From a virus (taxonomy: Duplodnaviria > Caudoviricetes), in the IMG/VR virus record IMGVR_UViG_3300012921_000082: a DNA stretch of 39,645 nt; one strand, written 5' to 3'. Under the pieces are notes generated by a model, which saw only the letters and a program-made list of their open reading frames with translations, was not told the DNA's origin and did not search any database. Positions 1-11,443 of this stretch are shown in pieces; within the stretch, counting starts at the first letter, position 1, and each line of letters begins with the position of its first letter. The translations under genes were made by a program, and so were the position numbers.

Positions 1-1176
1 CTAGGCTGCGGTGAGGTAGACAGACTCTCCGAACGGCGTCTTTGCCGCCAGATCATCGAACGTTCGACTGTCGCCAAACACCGCCCAGATCACCGGGCAA
101 TTCGGAGCCTTGCCGAAATCATGAACGTAGAGGTCGGTGAAGAAAACGACTGCGGATGCGTCACCGGCATTCTTCGATATCCACTCGAAGACGCCAGAGA
201 TCGCGGTACCGCCGCCGCCTTTTGGATCGAGTGCAAGCTCGTCACCGGCTTCATACGTCTCGACGCGCTGCACCTTCGTGTCGGCGTAGATCACGGTGAT
301 GCGATCGACCATGCCGTCGCCGAACGCGCCATTGATCTCGGATGCAAAGGCAGTCAGCGCCTTGGCGTCGATCGAGCCCGAGGTGTCGACGCACACCACC
401 AGATGAGCAACGCCATCCGATATGACGCCAGGCAGCACCATGTTCTGGTGCAAGAACCGGCGGTTCGGCCGCGCCCACGAGAAGTCCTTCACGTTGCTCT
501 CGTCGATGAAACGCCGCAGCACTGAGCGCCAGTCGATCACGGGCCGGGTCAGGCGATTGATCAGCCGCTTCAAGCCGGCCGGCATATTGCCCGCCATCTT
601 CCCGTTGGCGATCGCCGCCGCCTGCCGCACCCTCGTCTCGATGTCGGCCTTCGCGTCGGCCAGGCCGGCCTCATCGAATGGCGAGCACGCGTCGATCACG
701 CCGCCGCATCCGCCCGGGTCGTTGCCCTGCTGCTGACCGCCGCCGCCATTCTGTTGCGCTTCCTCTTCGAGGATACGACACACCTCCTCTGCACCCATGC
801 CAGTGAAGCGCGGATTGAGCAGGCCGCCCTTGGGCATGGAGCCGACATTGGTCTCGGACAACTCACCGTTGATGCAGTAGTCCGCCGCGATGTTCCAAAG
901 CCGAGCGTCGCGCATCTGCCGGCGAATGTGGTGCTGCAGCGCGTTGTGCATCACCTCGTGCGCCAGAACGAAGATCAGCTCCTGCTTGGTCAGGCTCTCC
1001 ACGAACGGGCCGTGGACGTAGAGCCGCTTCCCGTCGGTGGCCATCGTGTCGATGCGCGGATCGCCCGTGGCGTCGACCAGTTCGAGCTGGATGGCGAGCG
1101 TGGCGAAGAACGGATGATCCCACAGCAGCGACGTGCGGGCGGCGAGCAATTTGTCTTCGACTGCTTTGCTAAGCAT
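1..1176 (-). CDS. Putative metallopeptidase + VWA domain protein (DUF2201-like), MoxR partner
   Basis: N-terminal HEVMH (HEXXH) followed by WNIAADYCIN; Q/G-rich linker; C-terminal VWA with MIDAS DTSGS, GGGT and FTD motifs; ATG at 1176 with AAGGA SD, overlapping the upstream stop. Confidence 0.88.
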   Translation of the reverse strand: MLSKAVEDKLLAARTSLLWDHPFFATLAIQLELVDATGDPRIDTMATDGKRLYVHGPFVESLTKQELIFVLAHEVMHNALQHHIRRQMRDARLWNIAADYCINGELSETNVGSMPKGGLLNPRFTGMGAEEVCRILEEEAQQNGGGGQQQGNDPGGCGGVIDACSPFDEAGLADAKADIETRVRQAAAIANGKMAGNMPAGLKRLINRLTRPVIDWRSVLRRFIDESNVKDFSWARPNRRFLHQNMVLPGVISDGVAHLVVCVDTSGSIDAKALTAFASEINGAFGDGMVDRITVIYADTKVQRVETYEAGDELALDPKGGGGTAISGVFEWISKNAGDASAVVFFTDLYVHDFGKAPNCPVIWAVFGDSRTFDDLAAKTPFGESVYLTAA

Positions 1177-1477
1177 CGGGATATTCCTTCTCAACTTGCT
1201 GATGGATCATGAACGCGACAGCGGCGGAAACTTCGGCAGCGGATAGCCGAGACTTCAGTAGCGTCGCGCAGGAGAGCTTTGACCAAGTGCTCGGTTGCTG
1301 ATCGGCGCGGCACGTCAACACCAGCCAACAACGATCACGGCCACGGAGATAGAGATAGTATCGGCGGTCTCCTGACATGCGCCCGAATTGCCAGAACATC
1401 GTCGGACCCAGGCTTGTCGAAAACGACGTGGTGAACCCTGTCGGAACAAGGTGCGAAAGCCATTGCGCCCGGGTCAC
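1169..1477 (-). CDS. Small paralogue family member A (hypothetical)
   Basis: GTGA overlap with upstream stop; motifs FWQF, RYYLYLRGRDRCW and C-terminal LKSRLSAAEVSAAVAFMI shared with neighbours. Confidence 0.75.
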   Translation of the reverse strand: MTRAQWLSHLVPTGFTTSFSTSLGPTMFWQFGRMSGDRRYYLYLRGRDRCWLVLTCRADQQPSTWSKLSCATLLKSRLSAAEVSAAVAFMIHQQVEKEYPDA

Positions 1478-1752
1478 GACAGCCCTCCCTCGCGGATCGA
1501 AGCCGCCATGCAGGCAGCGATCTCCGAAGGCAGGAGCATTAGCTTGAGAATTGCCACCTGACGGTCGTTGACCGCATACCTCCTCACGTGACCACCGGGC
1601 GTGAACCGCTCACATCGGTATGCCGTGAACCCGCGCTCGCTCTCCCAATAGCGGAGTTCATAGAAGACCAGAGGAGCAACTTGGCCGGGCTTCTTGAGGT
1701 GCCATTGGAAACGACCGGCATGCTGGCACACCGTGTAGTGCTTGAGCTTCAT
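1474..1752 (-). CDS. Small paralogue family member B (hypothetical)
   Basis: Start MKLKHY at ATGA overlap (1752); FQWHL, FYELRYWESERGF, LKLMLLPSEIAACMAASI. Confidence 0.75.
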   Translation of the reverse strand: MKLKHYTVCQHAGRFQWHLKKPGQVAPLVFYELRYWESERGFTAYRCERFTPGGHVRRYAVNDRQVAILKLMLLPSEIAACMAASIREGGLS

Positions 1753-2072
1753 GACTGATCTCGCGGATCGTAGATCGAGGCGGCCATGCAGCGGGCAAGC
1801 AATTCTGGTGGCAGGGCCGCCTGGAACGCATCGACCGTATCTGCTGATACGGGTCCCCGGAAATCTTCCCAGCTCCCTCGGCGAGAACGAATGAAACGGA
1901 TGCCGAGCGCGAAAAACCGATGTGGTGGAGAGTAGATCAGTTCGTACGTCCAGCGAGGATAATCCCAGCCACGGGTATGCCAACGGAACCTGAACTGATC
2001 GCCTTTGCAGCGCGGTCCGAACAGTTCGCGACGGATGGTTTCGGCATCAATGCACTCGATCAAATTGGGCAT
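1749..2072 (-). CDS. Small paralogue family member C (hypothetical)
   Basis: Start MPNLIE with AGGA SD; FRWHT, TYELIYSPPHRFF, FQAALPPELLARCMAASI. Confidence 0.75.
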   Translation of the reverse strand: MPNLIECIDAETIRRELFGPRCKGDQFRFRWHTRGWDYPRWTYELIYSPPHRFFALGIRFIRSRRGSWEDFRGPVSADTVDAFQAALPPELLARCMAASIYDPRDQS

Positions 2073-2101
2073 GATGGGTTCCTGTTTCACCAGCGGCAAT
2101 C

Positions 2102-2401
2102 TCAGAACGGAAGGTCTTCCTCTTCCGGCGGCGGCGCAGTCATCGCCCTCCGCATGCATCCGGCAACATCTTCATCGGAGAGCATTCCTTGGAAGGCTTG
2201 GCGCTGCTCAGGATCATCGATGCTGACGACCTCAACTACTTTTTGCCGAGAGAGTAAGAAGCGCCTCTCCGACAACATGAAGGTGAGGAAGTAGCGGTGT
2301 TCCAGGGCCGGCGACTTCCACTTGATCGGCTCGAACCACCAACGATTGACATCCACCTTCTTGATTTCGAAATATTCATTGATGAACTCTTGCGTCATCA
2401 T
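2102..2401 (-). CDS. Small paralogue family member D (hypothetical)
   Basis: ATGA overlap; RWWF, RYFLTFMLSERRF, FQGMLSDEDVAGCMRRAM; acidic EEEDLPF tail. Confidence 0.78.
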   Translation of the reverse strand: MMTQEFINEYFEIKKVDVNRWWFEPIKWKSPALEHRYFLTFMLSERRFLLSRQKVVEVVSIDDPEQRQAFQGMLSDEDVAGCMRRAMTAPPPEEEDLPF

Positions 2402-2724
2402 CGTCCGTGTCTCCTATGAAATTCGAGTGCCAGGCGGGTGGCCTCGGCTATGTCTTCGGGCTTGAGTTTGGCGCGCAGCATGGGTGTGACGCGACCGCTC
2501 AATGGTGGTGTTGCAACCGGCAGCGCAGCCAGTTTCGCGGCCTTCTCTTCATCGCCCGGATGGCCGGGCAATGCTTTCGTGCTGAACCGACGGCTGTCGA
2601 ACCAGAAGGCGAGATGCCAGCGTGCGTACTCGCCGTTCGTGCGCAGGCCGGAAAAGCTCCACGCCAGCCGATCTTCGCGACAGGTTTTGCTGCTCGGGCC
2701 CCAGATGACCTTAATCTCAGCCAT
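2398..2724 (-). CDS. Small paralogue family member E (hypothetical)
   Basis: Start MAEIKV at TGATG overlap; WGP, LAWSF, RWHLAFWFDSRRF, LRAKLKPEDIAEATRLAL. Confidence 0.78.
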   Translation of the reverse strand: MAEIKVIWGPSSKTCREDRLAWSFSGLRTNGEYARWHLAFWFDSRRFSTKALPGHPGDEEKAAKLAALPVATPPLSGRVTPMLRAKLKPEDIAEATRLALEFHRRHGR

Positions 2725-3110
2725 CAGCGTACCGCCTTCATTGCGAGACGGGCGGCAAAGGCGATGTCCTCTTTCGACAGGCGAGGTTTCAGGATGTCGA
2801 GGTAAGTCCGGCCGTAGAGCATGGGCTTGTCCGGAACATACGCATCGACAAAGGCGGGGTCGAGCAAGGGCTTCTCCCACTTCCCGCCGACCTTGATGGC
2901 CTCGGCCATCGGCAGGGCGAAAGCAGACCATTCTCTTTCCCGGACCTTGAACCGCACGCACCAGCGGCCCATCGAATTGTCCTCGCGGATGCCGAAGAAA
3001 TGCCAATCAACCTGTCGGACCCAACCATGTGGCGGGTTGACGACAGCCTGACCTACTCGATCTTCCGACCGCCCGAACGGTCCATAGAGGGCGCGGAGGA
3101 AGACAGTCAT
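2724..3110 (-). CDS. Small paralogue family member F (hypothetical)
   Basis: ATGA overlap; YGP, VDWHF, RWCVRFKVREREW, LKPRLSKEDIAFAARLAM. Confidence 0.78.
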   Translation of the reverse strand: MTVFLRALYGPFGRSEDRVGQAVVNPPHGWVRQVDWHFFGIREDNSMGRWCVRFKVREREWSAFALPMAEAIKVGGKWEKPLLDPAFVDAYVPDKPMLYGRTYLDILKPRLSKEDIAFAARLAMKAVR

Positions 3111-3454
3111 CCTTGCCGCCTCCCCGTGATGCCAAGGGCGGTGGCAAAGCCAATCTCCGCCGCCGGCAGCATCGCCTTGAGAGCGGTGAGTAAATCGCCA
3201 CGAGGCAGGTCGCTGCGCCCAATGGCGACGTGCTGGTAGAAGCGCCGGATTGTTGAGACGTGCGCTTGATCGCCGATATCCGATTTCAGCGCCTGGACGG
3301 TGAACTTCCGCGTCTCAGCCTTGTATCGCAGCCGGTAGCGCAAAAGCTGCTGGTTGCGGTTTTCGGCCACGAACTCCCACGCCAGGTCGAAGGCTGTATA
3401 TTTGCCCTCGTAGTACCGCGTCGGGCCGGCAATCCATATGATTGGCGCACTCAT
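3107..3454 (-). CDS. Small paralogue family member G (hypothetical)
   Basis: Start MSAPII at ATGA overlap; AGP, LAWEF, RYRLRYKAETRKF, LKAMLPAAEIGFATALGI. Confidence 0.78.
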   Translation of the reverse strand: MSAPIIWIAGPTRYYEGKYTAFDLAWEFVAENRNQQLLRYRLRYKAETRKFTVQALKSDIGDQAHVSTIRRFYQHVAIGRSDLPRGDLLTALKAMLPAAEIGFATALGITGRRQG

Positions 3455-3672
3455 GACGGTTGCCTGTTCTGCTGTTGCCACCAGTGGAGATAGCAGTTCC
3501 GCTGCTCCGCCTTCGGACACCCTTCCCACCACAGCCGGCACGTCCCCGGCCCGGCTTGTGGATCACGGCCGCAGGTCTTGGCGCCCTTCCGAACCGGTCG
3601 GTATGACCATGTCGACTGCAGCGGGTCATCGAACAGGCGGGGCTCACCCGCCTGCTGTGCGTTCTTGTTCAT
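3451..3672 (-). CDS. Small Cys/Trp-rich hypothetical protein
   Basis: ATG 3672 with GAGG SD just after the AAA gene; C-x10-C-x6-C-x7-C-x2-H; stop overlaps next start. Confidence 0.6.
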   Translation of the reverse strand: MNKNAQQAGEPRLFDDPLQSTWSYRPVRKGAKTCGRDPQAGPGTCRLWWEGCPKAEQRNCYLHWWQQQNRQPS

Positions 3673-3683
3673 CACCGGCGACC

Positions 3684-4676
3684 TCAGTTGAAGGTGACGT
3701 CCTGATTGCGGACGGCCCAATCCGTGAACACCTGCGTATGAGAAAGCTTGTTGTCGCGCCGGACCGCATCGACCGTGAACATGATCTCGAACTCGCGACC
3801 TTGGATACGCTGTGCGTAGATCATGCCGTTCTCGAAGCTCTTGGCATCCACCTTGCGGGCCAGGCCGGAAGCCATGGCGTACTTGGCGGCAGGCTCAGAT
3901 GGCACCGGTGCAGAGTTCGGATTAGCAAGCACCAGATCAAGCGAAGGAAGCTGCTGGTAGACGCGAATGAACCCCTCGAACTCGGCCGCGGCGCCATCAC
4001 CAACAATTCCCCTCACCGCCTCACTGCGCAGCGCTTCGGGAGCTTTGATCACCTTGGCAACGCTCTCCCAGGCACGCGGCGTCGGGAACGCACGTAGATC
4101 GGCCGCGCCTTCCATGTTGTGCAGGAGCGCCGGCCGAAAACGCAGAAAGGCAAGCAGCAGCGGATCCACGTCGATATCGATGAAATGCTGAACCGTGGTG
4201 TCGACATCCGGGTCGATATCGATGTGAGCGAAGCGGTTGGCCAGAGCGGAAGGCATACGCTGCGCAGCCGCCTTGTCGGACTGCCGGTTGCCTGCTGCAA
4301 TGATGCGCCAGCCGGGAGGCATCGTGTATTCGCCGACCTTCCGGTCCAGCACGAGACCGAAGGCTGCAGCCTGCATCGAGGGAGCCGCAACGTTCAGTTC
4401 ATCCAGGAAGAGAAACCCGCGCTCGCCGTCGCGCTCCACTTGCGGGAACTCATCCGGCACCTTCCATTTGGCAGTCTCACCCTCGACCGAGGGAATACCC
4501 ATCAGCGCGACCGGGTCACGTGTCGAGCAGCGAAAGTCGATCACGTTGACGCCCTGCTCTTTGGCGAGCTGTTTGATGAGCGAGGACTTGCCCACGCCCG
4601 GCATGCCCCACAGGAATGCGGCGAGATCGGCGTAGATGTAGAGCGACAGCAGTTCTTTGGCGCGCTTGAGGTTCAT
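3684..4676 (-). CDS. MoxR-like AAA+ ATPase (AAA_5 type)
   Basis: Walker A GMPGVGKS, Walker B FLFLDE, AAGN sensor I, ALANRF arginine finger, TPRAW sensor II; GGAGA SD. Confidence 0.92.
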   Translation of the reverse strand: MNLKRAKELLSLYIYADLAAFLWGMPGVGKSSLIKQLAKEQGVNVIDFRCSTRDPVALMGIPSVEGETAKWKVPDEFPQVERDGERGFLFLDELNVAAPSMQAAAFGLVLDRKVGEYTMPPGWRIIAAGNRQSDKAAAQRMPSALANRFAHIDIDPDVDTTVQHFIDIDVDPLLLAFLRFRPALLHNMEGAADLRAFPTPRAWESVAKVIKAPEALRSEAVRGIVGDGAAAEFEGFIRVYQQLPSLDLVLANPNSAPVPSEPAAKYAMASGLARKVDAKSFENGMIYAQRIQGREFEIMFTVDAVRRDNKLSHTQVFTDWAVRNQDVTFN

Positions 4677-4685
4677 TGATAGAGT

Positions 4686-4712
4686 TCTCCATTATTTGCC
4701 ATGCTTGGCGGG
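4686..4712 (-). promoter_or_regulatory. Pre-SD hairpin motif copy 1
   Basis: CCC-GCCA-AGCA-TGGC-7 nt-GGAGA before the AAA gene. Confidence 0.7.
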
Positions 4713-5000
4713 TTGGGATGAGGCTAGGAGTGGGGGCAGCGGCTCCAGACGCGGAAACGGCTGTCCTATCTTGTTGAATTCGATAGTGACCCGGCGGAGG
4801 GGGTAACCCCGCGACCGTGATCGGTCCTCCCGGATCGCGTCGATCTGCGCTTGCACGTAGATCCAGCGCTCGCCGTTATCGACGCGGGGTTTGTTGTCTT
4901 CCGAATGTGTGATCAGGAACCACGCATCGGAGATTAGCTCCTTGTGTATTTCGCCGTCGATCTCGCGGCGGACGTACTCGCCGATCGATTCTCCTGGCAT
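4692..5000 (-). CDS. Hypothetical protein
   Basis: 102-aa ORF packed in the operon, 3 nt from the upstream stop. Confidence 0.6.
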   Translation of the reverse strand: MPGESIGEYVRREIDGEIHKELISDAWFLITHSEDNKPRVDNGERWIYVQAQIDAIREDRSRSRGYPLRRVTIEFNKIGQPFPRLEPLPPLLASSQPAKHGK

Positions 5001-5003
5001 TGG

Positions 5004-5396
5004 TCAGAACCAGACGCGGCGGCGGAAAAGCACTGCTGGTCCGCAGATAGGTGGCATGGTTGCGGCGTCGTAGTTGTCCGGGTCGTGAGTGCGGATGTTG
5101 TTGTGATAGATGTCCGTCGCACGGACGTTCCGGATCATCTTGCCGTTGATCGCCGAGCGGTCCCCGACGAACATGTCGACATATTCGCCATCCACGAACA
5201 CCCGGACGCGTTCCATGCGCTCTCCGGCGAGATGCGGCTCGATCACAGCACGAAGGGCATCGAGGCTTGGCCGAGCCGTCAACTGGGTTTGGCGCTGCTG
5301 CACCTCCCCTATCTCGGGAATGACAAAATAGTCGGTCAACATGTCGGCCGCCCAAGCAACGAGCCAGTTGGGATCGACTTCGCTAAGGTGAGGCAT
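5004..5396 (-). CDS. Hypothetical protein, possibly DUF3846-like
   Basis: LDALRAVI..., N.RAT.IY and ICGPAVLF pattern recalled from this phage family; start uncertain. Confidence 0.55.
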   Translation of the reverse strand: MPHLSEVDPNWLVAWAADMLTDYFVIPEIGEVQQRQTQLTARPSLDALRAVIEPHLAGERMERVRVFVDGEYVDMFVGDRSAINGKMIRNVRATDIYHNNIRTHDPDNYDAATMPPICGPAVLFRRRVWF

Positions 5397-5400
5397 CGCA

Positions 5401-5586
5401 TCACTGCACCAGCGGTTGGTTGGCATCAATCTTGGCTTGGATACGAGCGATCCGCGCGTCATCTTCCGGTGTCGAACCGAAGAACGCGCAGTCGTCTCGC
5501 AAAGTATCCAGCCAGAGGCGCAGATCGGATATCTCGTGGAGCTCTAACCGGCCCTCTCGATCGAGCAGTTCCTGCAGGTGGCTCAT
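5401..5586 (-). CDS. Hypothetical protein
   Basis: 61-aa helical ORF, ATGA-coupled to the upstream gene. Confidence 0.6.
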   Translation of the reverse strand: MSHLQELLDREGRLELHEISDLRLWLDTLRDDCAFFGSTPEDDARIARIQAKIDANQPLVQ

Positions 5587-5792
5587 TGGATCACCGGCTG
5601 GTTGGCGACGATCGTCACATCCGCGTTCGTGGCGAGGTCGATCACGCGGATGCCCTCGATGCCGTCGACCTGGTCGTCAGCAAGCGTGGTCTGGTCGGCG
5701 TGATAGGCTGCGAGTGCAGCGGCGGGTGATGCAGCTGTGACGACGTGATACTCCGTGCAGCGCGTCGACACGGCGACGTGGTAGCGTTTCAT
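5583..5792 (-). CDS. Hypothetical protein
   Basis: Start MKRYHV with AGGAGA SD, upstream hairpin motif and ATGA overlap. Confidence 0.7.
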   Translation of the reverse strand: MKRYHVAVSTRCTEYHVVTAASPAAALAAYHADQTTLADDQVDGIEGIRVIDLATNADVTIVANQPVIQ

Positions 5793-6061
5793 AACGGGTC
5801 TCCTTTTTTCGCATGATTGCGGGGCGTGCCTGGGTGGCACGGATGGTGGCTCACTCCGGTGAAGTGGCGCCCGTTTCGATTGCCCCAGTGCCAAGCTTTG
5901 CAGCCTAGGCAGTAAAAGATGCCGACGGGCGCAAACAAACCGAGCATGCCAACTGTGCGAAGCGCCCAAACGGCGTTCACTGCGTCAGCAGGGGTGGCGT
6001 ACGGGACTTTCGGAGTACGCCGGCACTGCTTGCGCCGCTTTCCAAGAAAGCCGAGCGGCAT
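5789..6061 (-). CDS. Small putative Zn-binding phage protein
   Basis: C...K.PYAT..DA...YCLGCKAWH pattern; start 1 nt after the upstream stop. Confidence 0.62.
   Translation of the reverse strand: MPLGFLGKRRKQCRRTPKVPYATPADAVNAVWALRTVGMLGLFAPVGIFYCLGCKAWHWGNRNGRHFTGVSHHPCHPGTPRNHAKKGDPL
5799..5824 (-). promoter_or_regulatory. Pre-SD hairpin motif copy 2
   Basis: CCC-CGCA-ATCA-TGCG-6 nt-GGAGA. Confidence 0.7.
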
Positions 6062-6062
6062 G

Positions 6063-6386
6063 TTACCGGCCCTTCGCCTTCGCAAGAGCCGCATGGCCGG
6101 CGTCGGAAAGTACTTTCAGCCCTTTCCAGTTCTCGTTTAGGCCGCTGGTCTGCCGCTCGTCTATCTCGATGTCGATCTCATGCAGGATTGCCCCGAGCGC
6201 CGCGCGCATCTCCTTTGCGGCTGACAGCAGATAGGCGTTGGCAAGCGCGTCTCCGTTCGCCTTGCCACCCTTTGAGCCGATGCGGTGGACACCGCAGATG
6301 ACGACTGCCGGGGTGGTGAGCGCTACAATGCGGACGAGGCGTCCATTGCTCACCGACCACGTGCCGTCCGTGGGTTGCGATTTCAT
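6063..6386 (-). CDS. Hypothetical phage protein
   Basis: GGAGA SD and hairpin motif; T.G.W start and ANAYLLSAAKEM...AALAKAKG, a variant of the common phage ANARLIAAAPEL motif. Confidence 0.75.
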   Translation of the reverse strand: MKSQPTDGTWSVSNGRLVRIVALTTPAVVICGVHRIGSKGGKANGDALANAYLLSAAKEMRAALGAILHEIDIEIDERQTSGLNENWKGLKVLSDAGHAALAKAKGR

Positions 6387-6391
6387 CGTGT

Positions 6392-6416
6392 TCTCCATGA
6401 TCGCATGATTGCGGGG
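6392..6416 (-). promoter_or_regulatory. Pre-SD hairpin motif copy 3
   Basis: CCC-CGCA-ATCA-TGCG-5 nt-GGAGA. Confidence 0.7.
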
Positions 6417-6432
6417 TTTGGAGGCGGCTGCT

Positions 6433-6693
6433 TCAGCCGCCGCCGGTATCAATTTCGATTGATCTGGGAGTCATTTCCTCGTCCACCCAAAACAAATCGT
6501 CTTCGCCGCAAGCGACATAAAGCACGCAGTTTGGAAGGATGGTGGGTAGAAAATTACCTTTGGCATCGATCGATGTTACGCCACAGAATGGCTGATGATC
6601 AGTGCTCGATTGCGAAAACTGACGGCGGAGACTGTCCCGGGCGCAGTTTAGAAGATCAAGGTATTGCTCGCCGGTCATACGCATCGAGGTCAC
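6433..6693 (-). CDS. Hypothetical protein
   Basis: 86-aa ORF with GTGA overlap to the upstream stop; visibly more AT-rich than its neighbours. Confidence 0.55.
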   Translation of the reverse strand: MTSMRMTGEQYLDLLNCARDSLRRQFSQSSTDHQPFCGVTSIDAKGNFLPTILPNCVLYVACGEDDLFWVDEEMTPRSIEIDTGGG

Positions 6694-7598
6694 GCCAAAA
6701 AACCGGAAACCTGATCGAGGATCTTCTTCGCCTCGGCCGCCACATCCTTGCGGACACCTTCGTTCTCGCGCAGCACTTGCGCGTCCCAGGCGGCGAGCGG
6801 ACGCAGGCGATCGACCATGGCGGTCAGTTCCGGATCACCAGTGATGTTCAGCATCGGCAGCACTTCGATCAGGTCGCGGACGTTGAGGACGAGCGAGTCG
6901 CGGAAGGCGCCTTCCGTCTGGTCTCCTTTACGCGCGGCGGGGCGGTAGGCGGTAAGCCGTTCCGCCATCCTGCCGGCGACATCGGCGACACGGCGATAGA
7001 CATCACGGACCGCGGTGGCCGCACCCTCGCGCACCTGGCGCTCGATATCCGCCCGGATGACGTCCGCTTGAGCTTCGGACATTGAGACACGGAAGTCTTC
7101 CGGCGTCGGCACGGGCAGCTTGCGCAACTCCATGCTGTAGCGATCGCGCAGTGAGTCGACCGTTGGATAGTCGGCGTCCTTAAACAGGCCGGACATCCGG
7201 TCCGGAGCGCTGCGGACCAGTTCCGGATATGAGGCGATGAACTCGCCCACGGCGTCCATGAATTTCTGCTTCTGGAGCGACAGCCAGCGGTCGTTCGCCA
7301 TGATCGCGGCCGCATTCATGATCCGGCCGCCGCCATCCATCCAAGGCAGAGTGCGCTTGTCGAACTCGGCGCGCGTGGCGCTGACGATCGACTGGATCGG
7401 TTGCAACGCCTCCTTCGGCAGCAGCAGCTTGTTGAACCGGCCGGCGTCGGCAGACGCACCATGCTCGCGGTTCACTTCGTCGGTGATCTGGCGATCGAGG
7501 CGACGGCCAGACCACTGCGTGATGTGCAGCGACACGACCACGGCGCGCGCAGCGAGTGTGGCGGTGACGGATGACGGAATACGGGCATGAGCGTTCAT
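6690..7598 (-). CDS. DUF3150-like protein
   Basis: Start MNAHAR with GGAGA SD; WSGRRLD, K.LL, TLPW..GGRI, DYP..D.LR.RY, LNITGDPEL pattern recalled from DUF3150-like mobile-element proteins. Confidence 0.7.
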   Translation of the reverse strand: MNAHARIPSSVTATLAARAVVVSLHITQWSGRRLDRQITDEVNREHGASADAGRFNKLLLPKEALQPIQSIVSATRAEFDKRTLPWMDGGGRIMNAAAIMANDRWLSLQKQKFMDAVGEFIASYPELVRSAPDRMSGLFKDADYPTVDSLRDRYSMELRKLPVPTPEDFRVSMSEAQADVIRADIERQVREGAATAVRDVYRRVADVAGRMAERLTAYRPAARKGDQTEGAFRDSLVLNVRDLIEVLPMLNITGDPELTAMVDRLRPLAAWDAQVLRENEGVRKDVAAEAKKILDQVSGFLA

Positions 7599-7606
7599 GC
7601 TTCTGG

Positions 7607-7632
7607 TCTCCATGGGTGCCATGATTGGCGGG
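7607..7632 (-). promoter_or_regulatory. Pre-SD hairpin motif copy 4
   Basis: CCC-GCCA-ATCA-TGGC-6 nt-GGAGA before the DUF3150-like gene. Confidence 0.7.
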
Positions 7633-7690
7633 GTTAAACGACAGAGCGACCTATCGCTTGACGAGAACGTGCCGTGAACGTGGCACGGAG

Positions 7691-8065
7691 TCAAGGCGCT
7701 TCTTTGTACCGTGGCGTGTCAGGCAGCACGCCGACCATGCGCACGCGCGTGGCGTCGGCAATATCCTCACCTGTCAGCAGCGAGATCGCGGCGTCCACCA
7801 GCCTGTCACCCTTGAAGCGCGGGAAATCGAGCGAGGGATAGGCGTAAATATCGGCAGGGATTTTGTATCGCTCGAAATTGGATGAATACGTCTGTGGCAC
7901 GTCAAAGTATGGACGTGAACGCGCGGCGGCGCGGCGTGTGACCGCGTCGACCGTTACCTCTTGACGGCTCTGGAATCCGGCTTCGCCAATGAAGACGAAC
8001 CAGAATTTCAGTTTTGAGGCTGTCACCTGCCGCGCGTAGGGACCAATCAAGAGATGTTCCATCAT
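7691..8065 (-). CDS. Small paralogue family member H (detached, most divergent)
   Basis: IGP, FWFVF, RQEVTVDAVTRRA and C-terminal ISLLTGEDIADATRVRM resembling member E. Confidence 0.68.
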   Translation of the reverse strand: MMEHLLIGPYARQVTASKLKFWFVFIGEAGFQSRQEVTVDAVTRRAAARSRPYFDVPQTYSSNFERYKIPADIYAYPSLDFPRFKGDRLVDAAISLLTGEDIADATRVRMVGVLPDTPRYKEAP

Positions 8066-9179: not shown

Positions 9180-9878
9180 TTAGGCAGCTGCGCTGGCCAG
9201 ACGGTCGGACGCTTCACGGTCAACCTTGATACGCTTGATCGTGGAAGCGGGCGCAGCGTCCTTGTCGGATTCCGGCTTGGCGACCTTCGGACGGCTGGCC
9301 TTCGGCGCGGCTTCCTTGGTCTCCTCGCCTTCCACTGGCTTGGTTTCGGCCTGCTTGATCTCGACCACGTTCGAGGTTGCGGCAGCGGGCTTCGCCTTGG
9401 CCGTCATCTCGCGGTATTTCTTGATCTGGGTGGCCATGAACAGGGCGAAGTTCTTGTCGTCCTGACCCGCGTCGTCGTCGTCAAGCGTGGCGTCCGCAAT
9501 CTTGCCAATACGGTCGACAAGCGGTGCCTTGGCCTTGGCTTCGGTCGATTTCTTGTCCTTTTCATAGTCCGCCGGCGACGTGGTGAATGCGGCCGGAAGG
9601 TCGGATTTCTTGCCCTTGGCATAAGTGAACACCAGCTTGACCGCGTCAAACGCGACCTTGCCGAACGCGGTCATCCACTTGACGACGGCGGCGCGGTAAT
9701 TCTTGGGCGTGGCCGAGTAGATGGCGTTGCAGTAAATCGCGTCGTGATGTTGCTCGACGTGGTTCAGCGCCGAATAGGCAAGCTGGTGCGTCTTTTCGGT
9801 GAAGGTGGCGGCGGTCTTGCCGTAGCTGGCAACGGCGGTCTTGAGGGACTTGCCGGTCAGGATTGCGAAAGCGGTCAT
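9180..9878 (-). CDS. First early protein, with Lys/Ala/Glu-rich disordered C-terminus
   Basis: Start MTAFAI with GGAGA SD and hairpin motif; N-terminal pattern (H...H.D....N.I...P...R....KW...FG) recalled from early genes of other phages. Confidence 0.75.
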   Translation of the reverse strand: MTAFAILTGKSLKTAVASYGKTAATFTEKTHQLAYSALNHVEQHHDAIYCNAIYSATPKNYRAAVVKWMTAFGKVAFDAVKLVFTYAKGKKSDLPAAFTTSPADYEKDKKSTEAKAKAPLVDRIGKIADATLDDDDAGQDDKNFALFMATQIKKYREMTAKAKPAAATSNVVEIKQAETKPVEGEETKEAAPKASRPKVAKPESDKDAAPASTIKRIKVDREASDRLASAAA

Positions 9879-9911: not shown

Positions 9912-10005
9912 TTTCGGTCTCAAGCGACCGTGACAGGCGCGTTCAGCGCCGCACCTGTCAGAGTGGCTTGAGTGTGACGCCGCGCAGCTCGCACCGCGCG
10001 GCGTC

Positions 10006-11027: not shown

Positions 11028-11222
11028 AGCGGACAAATGCCGGACACCAGCCGGACAGATGGCGGACAAATGGCGGTTTTTGCCATTTGTCGATTTCGCA
11101 AAGCGCTGGACCAATTGAGGTTGTCAGCGTTCGGCCGGACAAAAGCCGGACAAACGGCGGACAAGTGACGATTCCGCCATGATCGATGGAACGGACAAAC
11201 GGCGGACAAATGCTGGACATTT
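11028..11222 (+). repeat. Helically phased 11-bp repeats (consensus GSCGGACAAAT)
   Basis: GGAC cores at 11031, 11042, 11053, 11064, 11108, 11137, 11148, 11159, 11193, 11204 and 11215. Confidence 0.9.
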
Positions 11223-11443
11223 GGCGGTTCTACGCGTGTGCGCACGGCCTTCAGCTATAACCTGAGAAGTAGGAGGCCCTCATAGGCCGACCTATCTTCG
11301 TCTCCCGTTAGAGCCCGTCATCGGAGGTTGTTGGGGGATGGCTGCTGCGCGCCACCCCGTTGACAGTCCCCCGCGTTTACGGTCAATTCCAGCCGCTGGC
11401 GAGAAAACCGCCCGGCTCCTCCCCTTCACAATCGAGCATTGGC

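What the first reader, a model, noticed from the sequence alone, without database searches (positions are those of the whole stretch)
1..8065. Candidate phage-encoded modular protein remodelling/degradation system: AAA+ ATPase + Zn-peptidase-VWA + adaptor array + DUF3150-like protein
Established: MoxR AAA+ ATPases work with VWA partners (RavA-ViaA, CbbQ-CbbO, NorQ-NorD), where the VWA MIDAS engages the substrate. Seen: the VWA partner here also carries an intact HEXXH motif; the AAA and VWA genes are separated by about 2.5 kb holding the paralogue array and a Cys-rich ORF; the last paralogue's stop overlaps the VWA start; the eighth paralogue is next to the DUF3150-like gene; the AAA and DUF3150-like genes share the same pre-SD hairpin. 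Inference: an early-expressed machine in which interchangeable adaptors deliver different host proteins, such as defence systems, for unfolding or cleavage.
Basis: partly seen in the sequence, partly recalled or inferred. Interest (0 to 1): 0.85.

Follow-up and report, generated by a model that had tools for sequence, protein, structure and literature searches.

The report
Small-protein array inside phage ATPase-protease operon
A prophage carries eight diverged copies of an undescribed small protein, seven of them packed between the genes of a widespread ATPase and its protease-like partner; they likely steer this machine to host proteins (one copy ends in a tail like that of the host's single-stranded-DNA-binding protein), but binding is untested.

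Summary
The anatomy is real. The trio is a tight mobile-element module: 63 of 70 distant DUF3150-like loci hold all three, and none of the 70 has the array. The array sits in the AAA-VWA gap in 21 of 21 loci of one rhizobial prophage clade, so it is conserved but probably one gain. The paralogues are old position-linked subfamilies under purifying selection, mostly basic, with no known fold. One ends in an SSB-tail mimic that, in this genome, only host SSB shares. A same-family ATPase of phage Bas54 is needed, with a 99-aa protein, against defence DS-28. Corrections: the hairpin precedes seven early genes, not two, and the Cys-rich ORF is not conserved. The adaptor role is plausible (about 0.4) but unshown; independent nucleic-acid-binding or host-takeover proteins are nearly as likely. 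The scan found this system and the hairpin before on other DNA.

The parts
1..1176 (-). Zincin (HEXXH) + VWA (intact MIDAS) protein, 391 aa, DUF2201_N + DUF2201, PHROG 1314
1169..1477 (-). Paralogue o1 (102 aa, GTG start), most diverged; stop overlaps the VWA start by 8 nt
1474..1752 (-). Paralogue o2 (92 aa)
1749..2072 (-). Paralogue o3 (107 aa)
2102..2401 (-). Paralogue o4 (99 aa, acidic) ending in an SSB C-terminal-tail mimic (acidic residues, then Leu-Pro-Phe)
2398..2724 (-). Paralogue o5 (108 aa); AF2 model: four-strand meander plus three helices, pLDDT 89
2724..3110 (-). Paralogue o6 (128 aa)
3107..3454 (-). Paralogue o7 (115 aa); its subfamily comes first after the AAA gene in 14 of 21 loci
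3451..3672 (-). 73-aa ORF with 4 Cys; no homologue in related loci, probably incidental
3684..4676 (-). MoxR-type AAA+ ATPase, 330 aa, PHROG 1297, catalytic motifs intact
4698..4709 (-). Pre-SD 4-bp hairpin ahead of the AAA gene
6690..7598 (-). DUF3150-like protein, 302 aa, third core component; helical model (pLDDT 93), no specific fold match
7618..7629 (-). Pre-SD 4-bp hairpin ahead of the DUF3150-like gene
7691..8062 (-). Paralogue o8 (123 aa); its subfamily lies just upstream of the AAA gene in several relatives

Best explanation
The three large genes are a conserved mobile-element module that likely forms an ATP-driven protein-remodelling or proteolytic machine, and the eight small paralogues, added in one prophage clade, likely act as its targeting factors against host proteins. 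Predicted mechanism, by analogy with MoxR-VWA pairs (recalled knowledge): an ATPase hexamer docks the zincin-VWA protein, which grips a client through the MIDAS site and unfolds, releases or cuts it, with the DUF3150-like protein as scaffold or co-factor. Each small protein would use its shared C-terminal helices to dock on the machine, and its variable sheet face or tail to catch a different client; o4 would catch SSB-interacting DNA-repair or replication proteins. Shown: genes, intact motifs, linkage, family, selection, SSB-type tail. Inferred: complex formation, proteolysis, adaptor role, targets, early expression. Step odds: trio is one unit 0.85; it acts on host proteins or defences 0.6; the paralogues target it 0.4.
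For: Trio linkage: 67 of 70 DUF3150-like viral loci have the AAA gene, 65 the VWA gene, 63 both; compact trios on plasmids. Array: members in the AAA-VWA gap in 21 of 21 clade loci, 3-7 copies in 20 and one detected in L039; about 225-420 bp of gap per member in those 20, so the gap holds little else; genes chained by stop-start overlaps into the VWA gene. Reverse direction: 22 of 27 non-self family clusters share a longest-contig length with a VWA or DUF3150-like homologue or a trio locus (against 51, 55, 74, 94; indirect); 7 of 7 contigs found with the o8 subfamily are trio contigs (training sequences). dN/dS 0.11-0.50. SSB tail: 2 of 53,602 frames in the genome end so, host SSB and o4; kept in relatives and on a second subfamily body. 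Bas54's ATPase is PHROG 1297, 28% identical, E 6e-31, and is required with the 99-aa bas54_0140 against DS-28 (10.1101/2025.11.20.689424, passages; size). An unrelated three-copy array sits between the DUF3150 and VWA genes in phage MinM2.
Against: 0 of 70 distant trios, and none of 7 further distant loci or 4 annotated records, have the family, including close ones with AAA 52-54% identical. Array-bearing loci form one clade (VWA tree 0.98; the AAA and DUF3150 trees include 2-3 array-less loci), so co-occurrence is about one event. 32 of 116 members lie outside the gap, some about 8 kb away. Paralogue pairs are no commoner inside distant trios (3 of 70, one an apparent HNH pair) than elsewhere in those loci (4 of 70), and Bas54 has small-paralogue families far from its ATPase, so arrays are ordinary in accessory regions. 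78% of 115 members have pI above 9 and the best fold rows are PUR repeats (Z 5.2, rmsd 1.8, 47 residues), which fits nucleic-acid binding as well. bas54_0140 is unrelated to this family, and Bas54's peptidase gene is not named in the main text among the genes required.
Confidence: 0.4

Rival explanations
1. The paralogues are independent small host-takeover or nucleic-acid-binding proteins (a PC4/PUR-like sheet, possibly hetero-oligomeric, with o4 supplying an SSB-type tail that recruits or sequesters host DNA enzymes). They expanded in a well-expressed slot of the early operon and do not touch the ATPase machine.
For: Median pI 9.6; PUR-alpha tops two fold lists and SpoVG aligns over residues 2-93, both weak (Z 4.5-5.2); Atlas leads to arm-type DNA-binding domains at 0.79-0.80, below its bar; SSB tail; trio complete without the array in 70 of 70; single clade; dispersed copies.
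Against: 84 of 116 members sit between two genes of one machine and the gap holds almost nothing else; the fold scores are in the chance range; only 1 of 8 copies has the SSB tail and it is the acidic one.
Confidence: 0.33
2. The paralogues are regulators or own substrates of the machine (inhibitors, timers, or proteins that it activates by unfolding or cleavage) rather than adaptors for host clients.
For: The same linkage and translational chaining; basic small proteins beside acidic VWA (pI 5.2) and AAA (pI 5.7).
Against: Does not explain the SSB-type tail or the upkeep of several old subfamilies.
Confidence: 0.1
3. The paralogues are RNA-binding regulators that read the pre-SD hairpin of the early genes.
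For: Hairpin common in array-bearing loci (117 in 408 kb) and rare in array-less loci (11 in 1008 kb); basic sheet proteins.
Against: Array-less L055, L056 and L064 have the hairpin (5, 2, 3 copies), and array-bearing L019 and L038 have none in the stretch held; one short motif does not need eight divergent readers.
Confidence: 0.07
4. The AAA-VWA/peptidase pair is a virion-assembly chaperone, as proposed for jumbo phages, and the small proteins are assembly co-factors.
For: PMC7824862 (passages) proposes this role for the MoxR + metallopeptidase-vWA pair.
Against: The genes lie in the arm opposite the head and tail genes; the compact trio occurs on plasmids (146 plasmid records match the AAA); the Bas54 ATPase knockout shows a defence-specific need.
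Confidence: 0.06

Closest known systems
N4 gp24/gp25-type phage pair (PHROG 1297 ATPase + PHROG 1314; Pfam DUF2201_N + DUF2201); MoxR + metallopeptidase-vWA pair of jumbo phages (PMC7824862, passages)
   Same: Same two families, intact motifs; 835 phage records match the AAA and 713 the VWA protein.
   Different: The paper proposes virion assembly, which plasmid trios argue against.
Phage Bas54 MoxR ATPase bas54_0063 + bas54_0140, anti-DS-28 (10.1101/2025.11.20.689424, passages)
   Same: ATPase in PHROG 1297, 28% identical; the genome also encodes the PHROG 1314 protein bas54_0055, 26% identical; a small protein is needed for the same phenotype.
   Different: Lytic coliphage; the genes are not adjacent; bas54_0140 (PHROG 12072) is unrelated to the array family; no mechanism given in the passages read.
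Vcrx089-Vcrx090 anti-type I restriction module of IncC plasmids (PMC7498323, passages)
   Same: Mobile-element AAA_5/CbbQ-type ATPase with a defence-evasion phenotype.
   Different: Vcrx089 has a CbbQ_C domain, not found here; its partner has no Pfam domain; no array. Not compared directly.
MoxR-VWA chaperone pairs (RavA-ViaA, CbbQ-CbbO, NorQ-NorD; recalled) and MoxR-vWA ternary conflict systems (PMC7159879, search listing only)
   Same: MoxR ATPase plus MIDAS-bearing VWA partner; works-like model.
   Different: Intact HEXXH here; mobile-element location; small separate paralogues in place of a large third component; bpMoxR match below cut-off (E 0.0096).
Bacterial SSB C-terminal tail (SSB-Ct; PMC5872125 and PMC10164576, abstracts in listing)
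   Same: o4 ends in the same acidic-then-Pro-Phe motif as the host SSB.
   Different: Carried on an unrelated 99-aa body with no OB-fold family hit.

Membership tests
PHROG 1297/1314 (N4 gp24/gp25-type) pair | AAA matches PHROG 1297 and partner matches PHROG 1314 over full length | tested here: met
   E 1e-87 and 1.5e-98
PHROG 1297/1314 (N4 gp24/gp25-type) pair | Partner has DUF2201_N + DUF2201 with HEXXH and MIDAS | tested here: met
MoxR-type AAA+ ATPase | Walker A/B, sensors, Arg finger, and linked VWA partner | tested here: met
   Motifs conserved (names recalled); AAA_5 above cut-off; partner linked
MoxR-type AAA+ ATPase | Hexamer that binds the VWA partner and remodels a client | not testable with these tools
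   No experiment; this pair was not modelled
Active zincin protease | Zinc-dependent peptide cleavage | not testable with these tools
   Only motif conservation (H73 E74 H77, D99 invariant)
DUF3150 (PF11348) | Score above Pfam gathering cut-off | tested here: not met
   14.4 bits against 24.9; filed as DUF3150-like only
DUF3150 (PF11348) | Close homologues carry PF11348 | tested here: met
   6 of 120 listed homologues; Atlas clusters with 12-17% carriers
Vcrx089/090 hde module | CbbQ_C domain on the ATPase | tested here: not met
   No PF08406 among 17 families at E up to 0.1
PC4/PUR/SpoVG-like nucleic-acid-binding fold (paralogues) | Significant structural match covering sheet and helix | tested here: inconclusive
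   Z 4.5-5.2, mostly the sheet only
Substrate adaptor of the machine (paralogues) | Binds a machine subunit and a client | not testable with these tools
   Needs experiment; see Tried and rejected for the one modelling job
SSB-Ct motif (o4) | Acidic residues, hydrophobic residue, Pro-Phe at the extreme C-terminus, conserved | tested here: met

The most novel reading that the evidence does not exclude
A phage-encoded, reprogrammable targeted-degradation system: one AAA+/zinc-protease core served by a cassette of small substrate receptors, each a shared docking scaffold with a different bait. One bait mimics the host SSB tail and so delivers host DNA-repair, replication or SSB-sensing defence proteins for unfolding or cutting. 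Other phage lineages would have recruited unrelated small families for the same job.
Probability: 0.3. Interest if true: 0.85.

Novelty: new variant of a known kind. Interest (0 to 1): 0.55.

Why it matters
The ATPase/zincin-VWA pair is in hundreds of phage genomes (835 and 713 records) and on plasmids, yet has no mechanism in the papers found; one homologue has a defence-specific phenotype. This locus supplies candidate specificity factors and one concrete handle, the SSB-type tail, so the question of what the machine acts on becomes testable with a pull-down and trap mutants. If the adaptor model holds, phages have a modular way to remove chosen host proteins.

Tried and rejected
Complex prediction of VWA-peptidase with o7: no answer (score 0.00 twice, controls not folded); it is no evidence either way, and AAA or DUF3150-like partners were not modelled. 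Family look-ups for the paralogues: nothing credible in Pfam, PHROG (53 members each), NCBIfam or PADLOC (window copies) or PDB sequences (best E 0.18). Fold searches: no Foldseek match at E 0.001 in PDB or BFVD; VIA best Z 4.8 and 5.2. DUF3150-like fold: only generic helical bundles, Z up to 9.5. A shared C-terminal docking module in proteins near distant trios was suggested by eye (L075) but rejected: best plus-strand score 8.3 bits, no more than host controls. MinM2 triplet and bas54_0140 are unrelated to the family. General enrichment of paralogue arrays inside distant trios was not seen. Order-wide genome samples were nearly blank: AAA 0 of 60 relatives; family 1 weak hit in 400; these are samples, not proof of absence. 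Rfam: no family for the hairpin. Literature: 'DUF3150' gave 1 paper, 'DUF2201+AAA+phage' 1, 'vWA+MoxR+metallopeptidase+phage' 5, 'MoxR, von Willebrand, phage, anti-defense, adaptor' (4 of 5 terms) 7, 'paralogous, small proteins, prophage, MoxR, vWA' (4 of 5) 2; none describes the array in title, abstract start or the passages read. The library is open-access only, and the bioRxiv supplements, which may hold data on bas54_0055, were not seen.
Full report
Setting. The window lies at C1:1247693-1287337 of a 6.02-Mb, two-contig genome. From 12490 rightwards it encodes terminase, portal, major head, tail and tape-measure proteins. Leftwards of the window lie ParB-like and beta-clamp genes, and by eye primase- and helicase-like genes. 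It is therefore part of a prophage, and the finding sits in the oppositely transcribed accessory arm. 'Early' is an inference from position; there are no expression data.

Observation. The VWA protein (1-1176) matches DUF2201_N and DUF2201 and PHROG 1314 (its 'HNH endonuclease' label does not fit these domains). HEXXH and MIDAS residues are invariant in 97 sequences. The AAA protein (3684-4676) matches PHROG 1297 with conserved catalytic motifs. Between them are seven ORFs of 92-128 aa and a 73-aa ORF, chained mostly by 1- to 8-nt overlaps; an eighth copy lies upstream of the DUF3150-like gene. Similarity inside the window alone is patchy. Profiles built with relatives recover all eight, nothing else in the genome, and nothing among 5680 reversed ORFs. 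The family has 277 representatives at 50% clustering and no credible family hit. The o5 model is a four-strand meander followed by three helices, pLDDT 89, with no significant fold match.

The core. Of the 80 best DUF3150-like viral loci (of 562 found) I dropped the 10 already known to carry the array. Of the other 70, 67 have the AAA gene, 65 the VWA gene and 63 both within 7 kb; most misses are short or cut loci; none has the array family. Two plasmids inspected carry the compact AAA-DUF3150-like-VWA trio. The pair without the third gene is widespread: 835 and 713 phage records match AAA and VWA, but 3 match the DUF3150-like protein. So the trio is a real module and does not need the array.

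The array. After removing duplicates (L018, L022, L024, L027, and three of four copies of the window) and partial loci (L015, L032), 21 loci of the close clade hold both AAA and VWA. All 21 have members in the gap: 3-7 in 20 loci and one detected in L039. In total 84 of 116 members are in the gap, and gap length tracks copy number. A FastTree tree groups members by type rather than by genome; the o7 type is first after the AAA gene in 14 of 21 (support values not inspected). Whole-gene dN/dS is 0.11-0.50 against 0.08-0.14 for the core (one pair saturated). In the reverse direction, 22 of 27 non-self clusters share a contig length with a trio gene or locus, and four of the five misses are contigs under 4 kb (indirect, and some are training sequences). 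But these loci are one clade, so the linkage counts as about one evolutionary event. Close array-less trios exist (L055, L056, L058, L062). An unrelated triplet sits inside the MinM2 trio, yet paralogue pairs are not enriched inside the 70 distant trios.

Functional handles. Of 53,602 stop-to-stop frames in the genome, two end in [DE][DE][ILVM]PF: a protein that reads as the host SSB (identified by eye) and o4. The tail is kept in L020, L021, L025, L026, in variant form in L030, and on two proteins of another subfamily. The SSB tail is the docking site for SSB-interacting proteins (PMC5872125, PMC10164576; abstracts in listing). (2) In Bas54 a MoxR ATPase and one unknown gene are specifically required to overcome DS-28 (10.1101/2025.11.20.689424; passages). 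I show that this ATPase is PHROG 1297, that Bas54 also encodes the PHROG 1314 partner, and that the second gene is a 99-aa protein unrelated to the array. That fits 'ATPase plus small specificity factor', but two independent functions fit too, and the peptidase gene is not named in the main text. (3) A more distant mobile-element AAA, Vcrx089, protects IncC plasmids from type I restriction (PMC7498323; passages) and is associated with phage infectivity in a panel (10.64898/2026.02.22.706922; passages); it lacks direct comparison here. PMC7824862 (passages) proposes virion assembly for the pair; plasmid trios and gene position argue against that.

The hairpin. A 4-bp stem with an NNYA loop lies 5-7 nt before a GGAG site at 7 genes of the window; 9 of 17 genome-wide matches are in this prophage arm. 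Without requiring complementarity, the second pair is Watson-Crick in 103 of 103 hits in 21 loci (58 G-C, 40 C-G, 5 T-A; 65 distinct strings), and both outer pairs hold in 80 of 103 against a shuffle mean of 27; 7 of 44 host hits pair (loci are related). It is a real structured signal of an early regulon, consistent with co-regulation but not specific to the two genes named.

Mechanism and verdict. I commit to a host-directed remodelling or proteolytic machine with clade-specific targeting factors (0.4). The main rival is independent, basic, nucleic-acid-binding or host-takeover proteins in a favourable operon slot (0.33). Genes, motifs, linkage, selection and the SSB-type tail are shown; complex formation, proteolysis, adaptor function and targets are inferred. 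The core pair is known; the three-gene module and the array family were not found in print by the searches listed under Tried and rejected. The scan has reported this system and the hairpin on other DNA; those notes are unchecked leads, not support. New variant of a known kind, interest 0.55.

Noticed in passing
window minus strand, stems starting at 4709, 5821, 6413, 7629, 8871, 9908, 10028; G000 C1:1247484 and 1244734: Covarying 4-bp hairpin with mostly ANYA loop just ahead of SD sites, conserved through the prophage clade; A or G opposite T at the inner pair suggests RNA; reader unknown. Start-associated sequences of cluster K mycobacteriophages are a lead (listing only).
   Followed up: yes
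window 2102-2122 (minus): SSB C-terminal-tail mimic on paralogue o4; other members carry different long tails after the conserved helix (L007, L008, L009).
   Followed up: yes
   Followed up: partly
window 5004-5390 (minus): ORF b is conserved between the DUF3150-like and AAA genes in most clade loci and has no family hit; possible fourth clade-specific component.
   Followed up: partly
window 9180-9878 (minus): PHROG 1448 protein, conserved upstream of the trio in nearly all clade loci and preceded by the hairpin.
   Followed up: no
window about 11028-11229: Clustered short direct repeats in the non-coding divergent region between the accessory and structural arms; possible origin, packaging or operator array.
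   Followed up: no
window 9932-10005 (+): Sub-threshold Rfam match to sRNA P6 (31.9 bits, cut-off 50).
   Followed up: no
L002:13568-17012 (minus): The prophage arm left of the window encodes a beta-clamp-like and a ParB-like protein.
   Followed up: no
L030:7973-8611: A 212-aa ORF that looks like an HNH homing endonuclease by eye occupies the slot of the window's Cys-rich ORF in the closest relative.
   Followed up: no
L133:211-8189 (phage Bas54): Several small-protein paralogue families lie near the anti-DS-28 gene bas54_0140; candidates for the same specificity-factor test.
   Followed up: partly
PHROG 1314: The family is labelled 'HNH endonuclease', but its members here are zincin-VWA proteins; the label has spread to many phage records.
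   Followed up: partly
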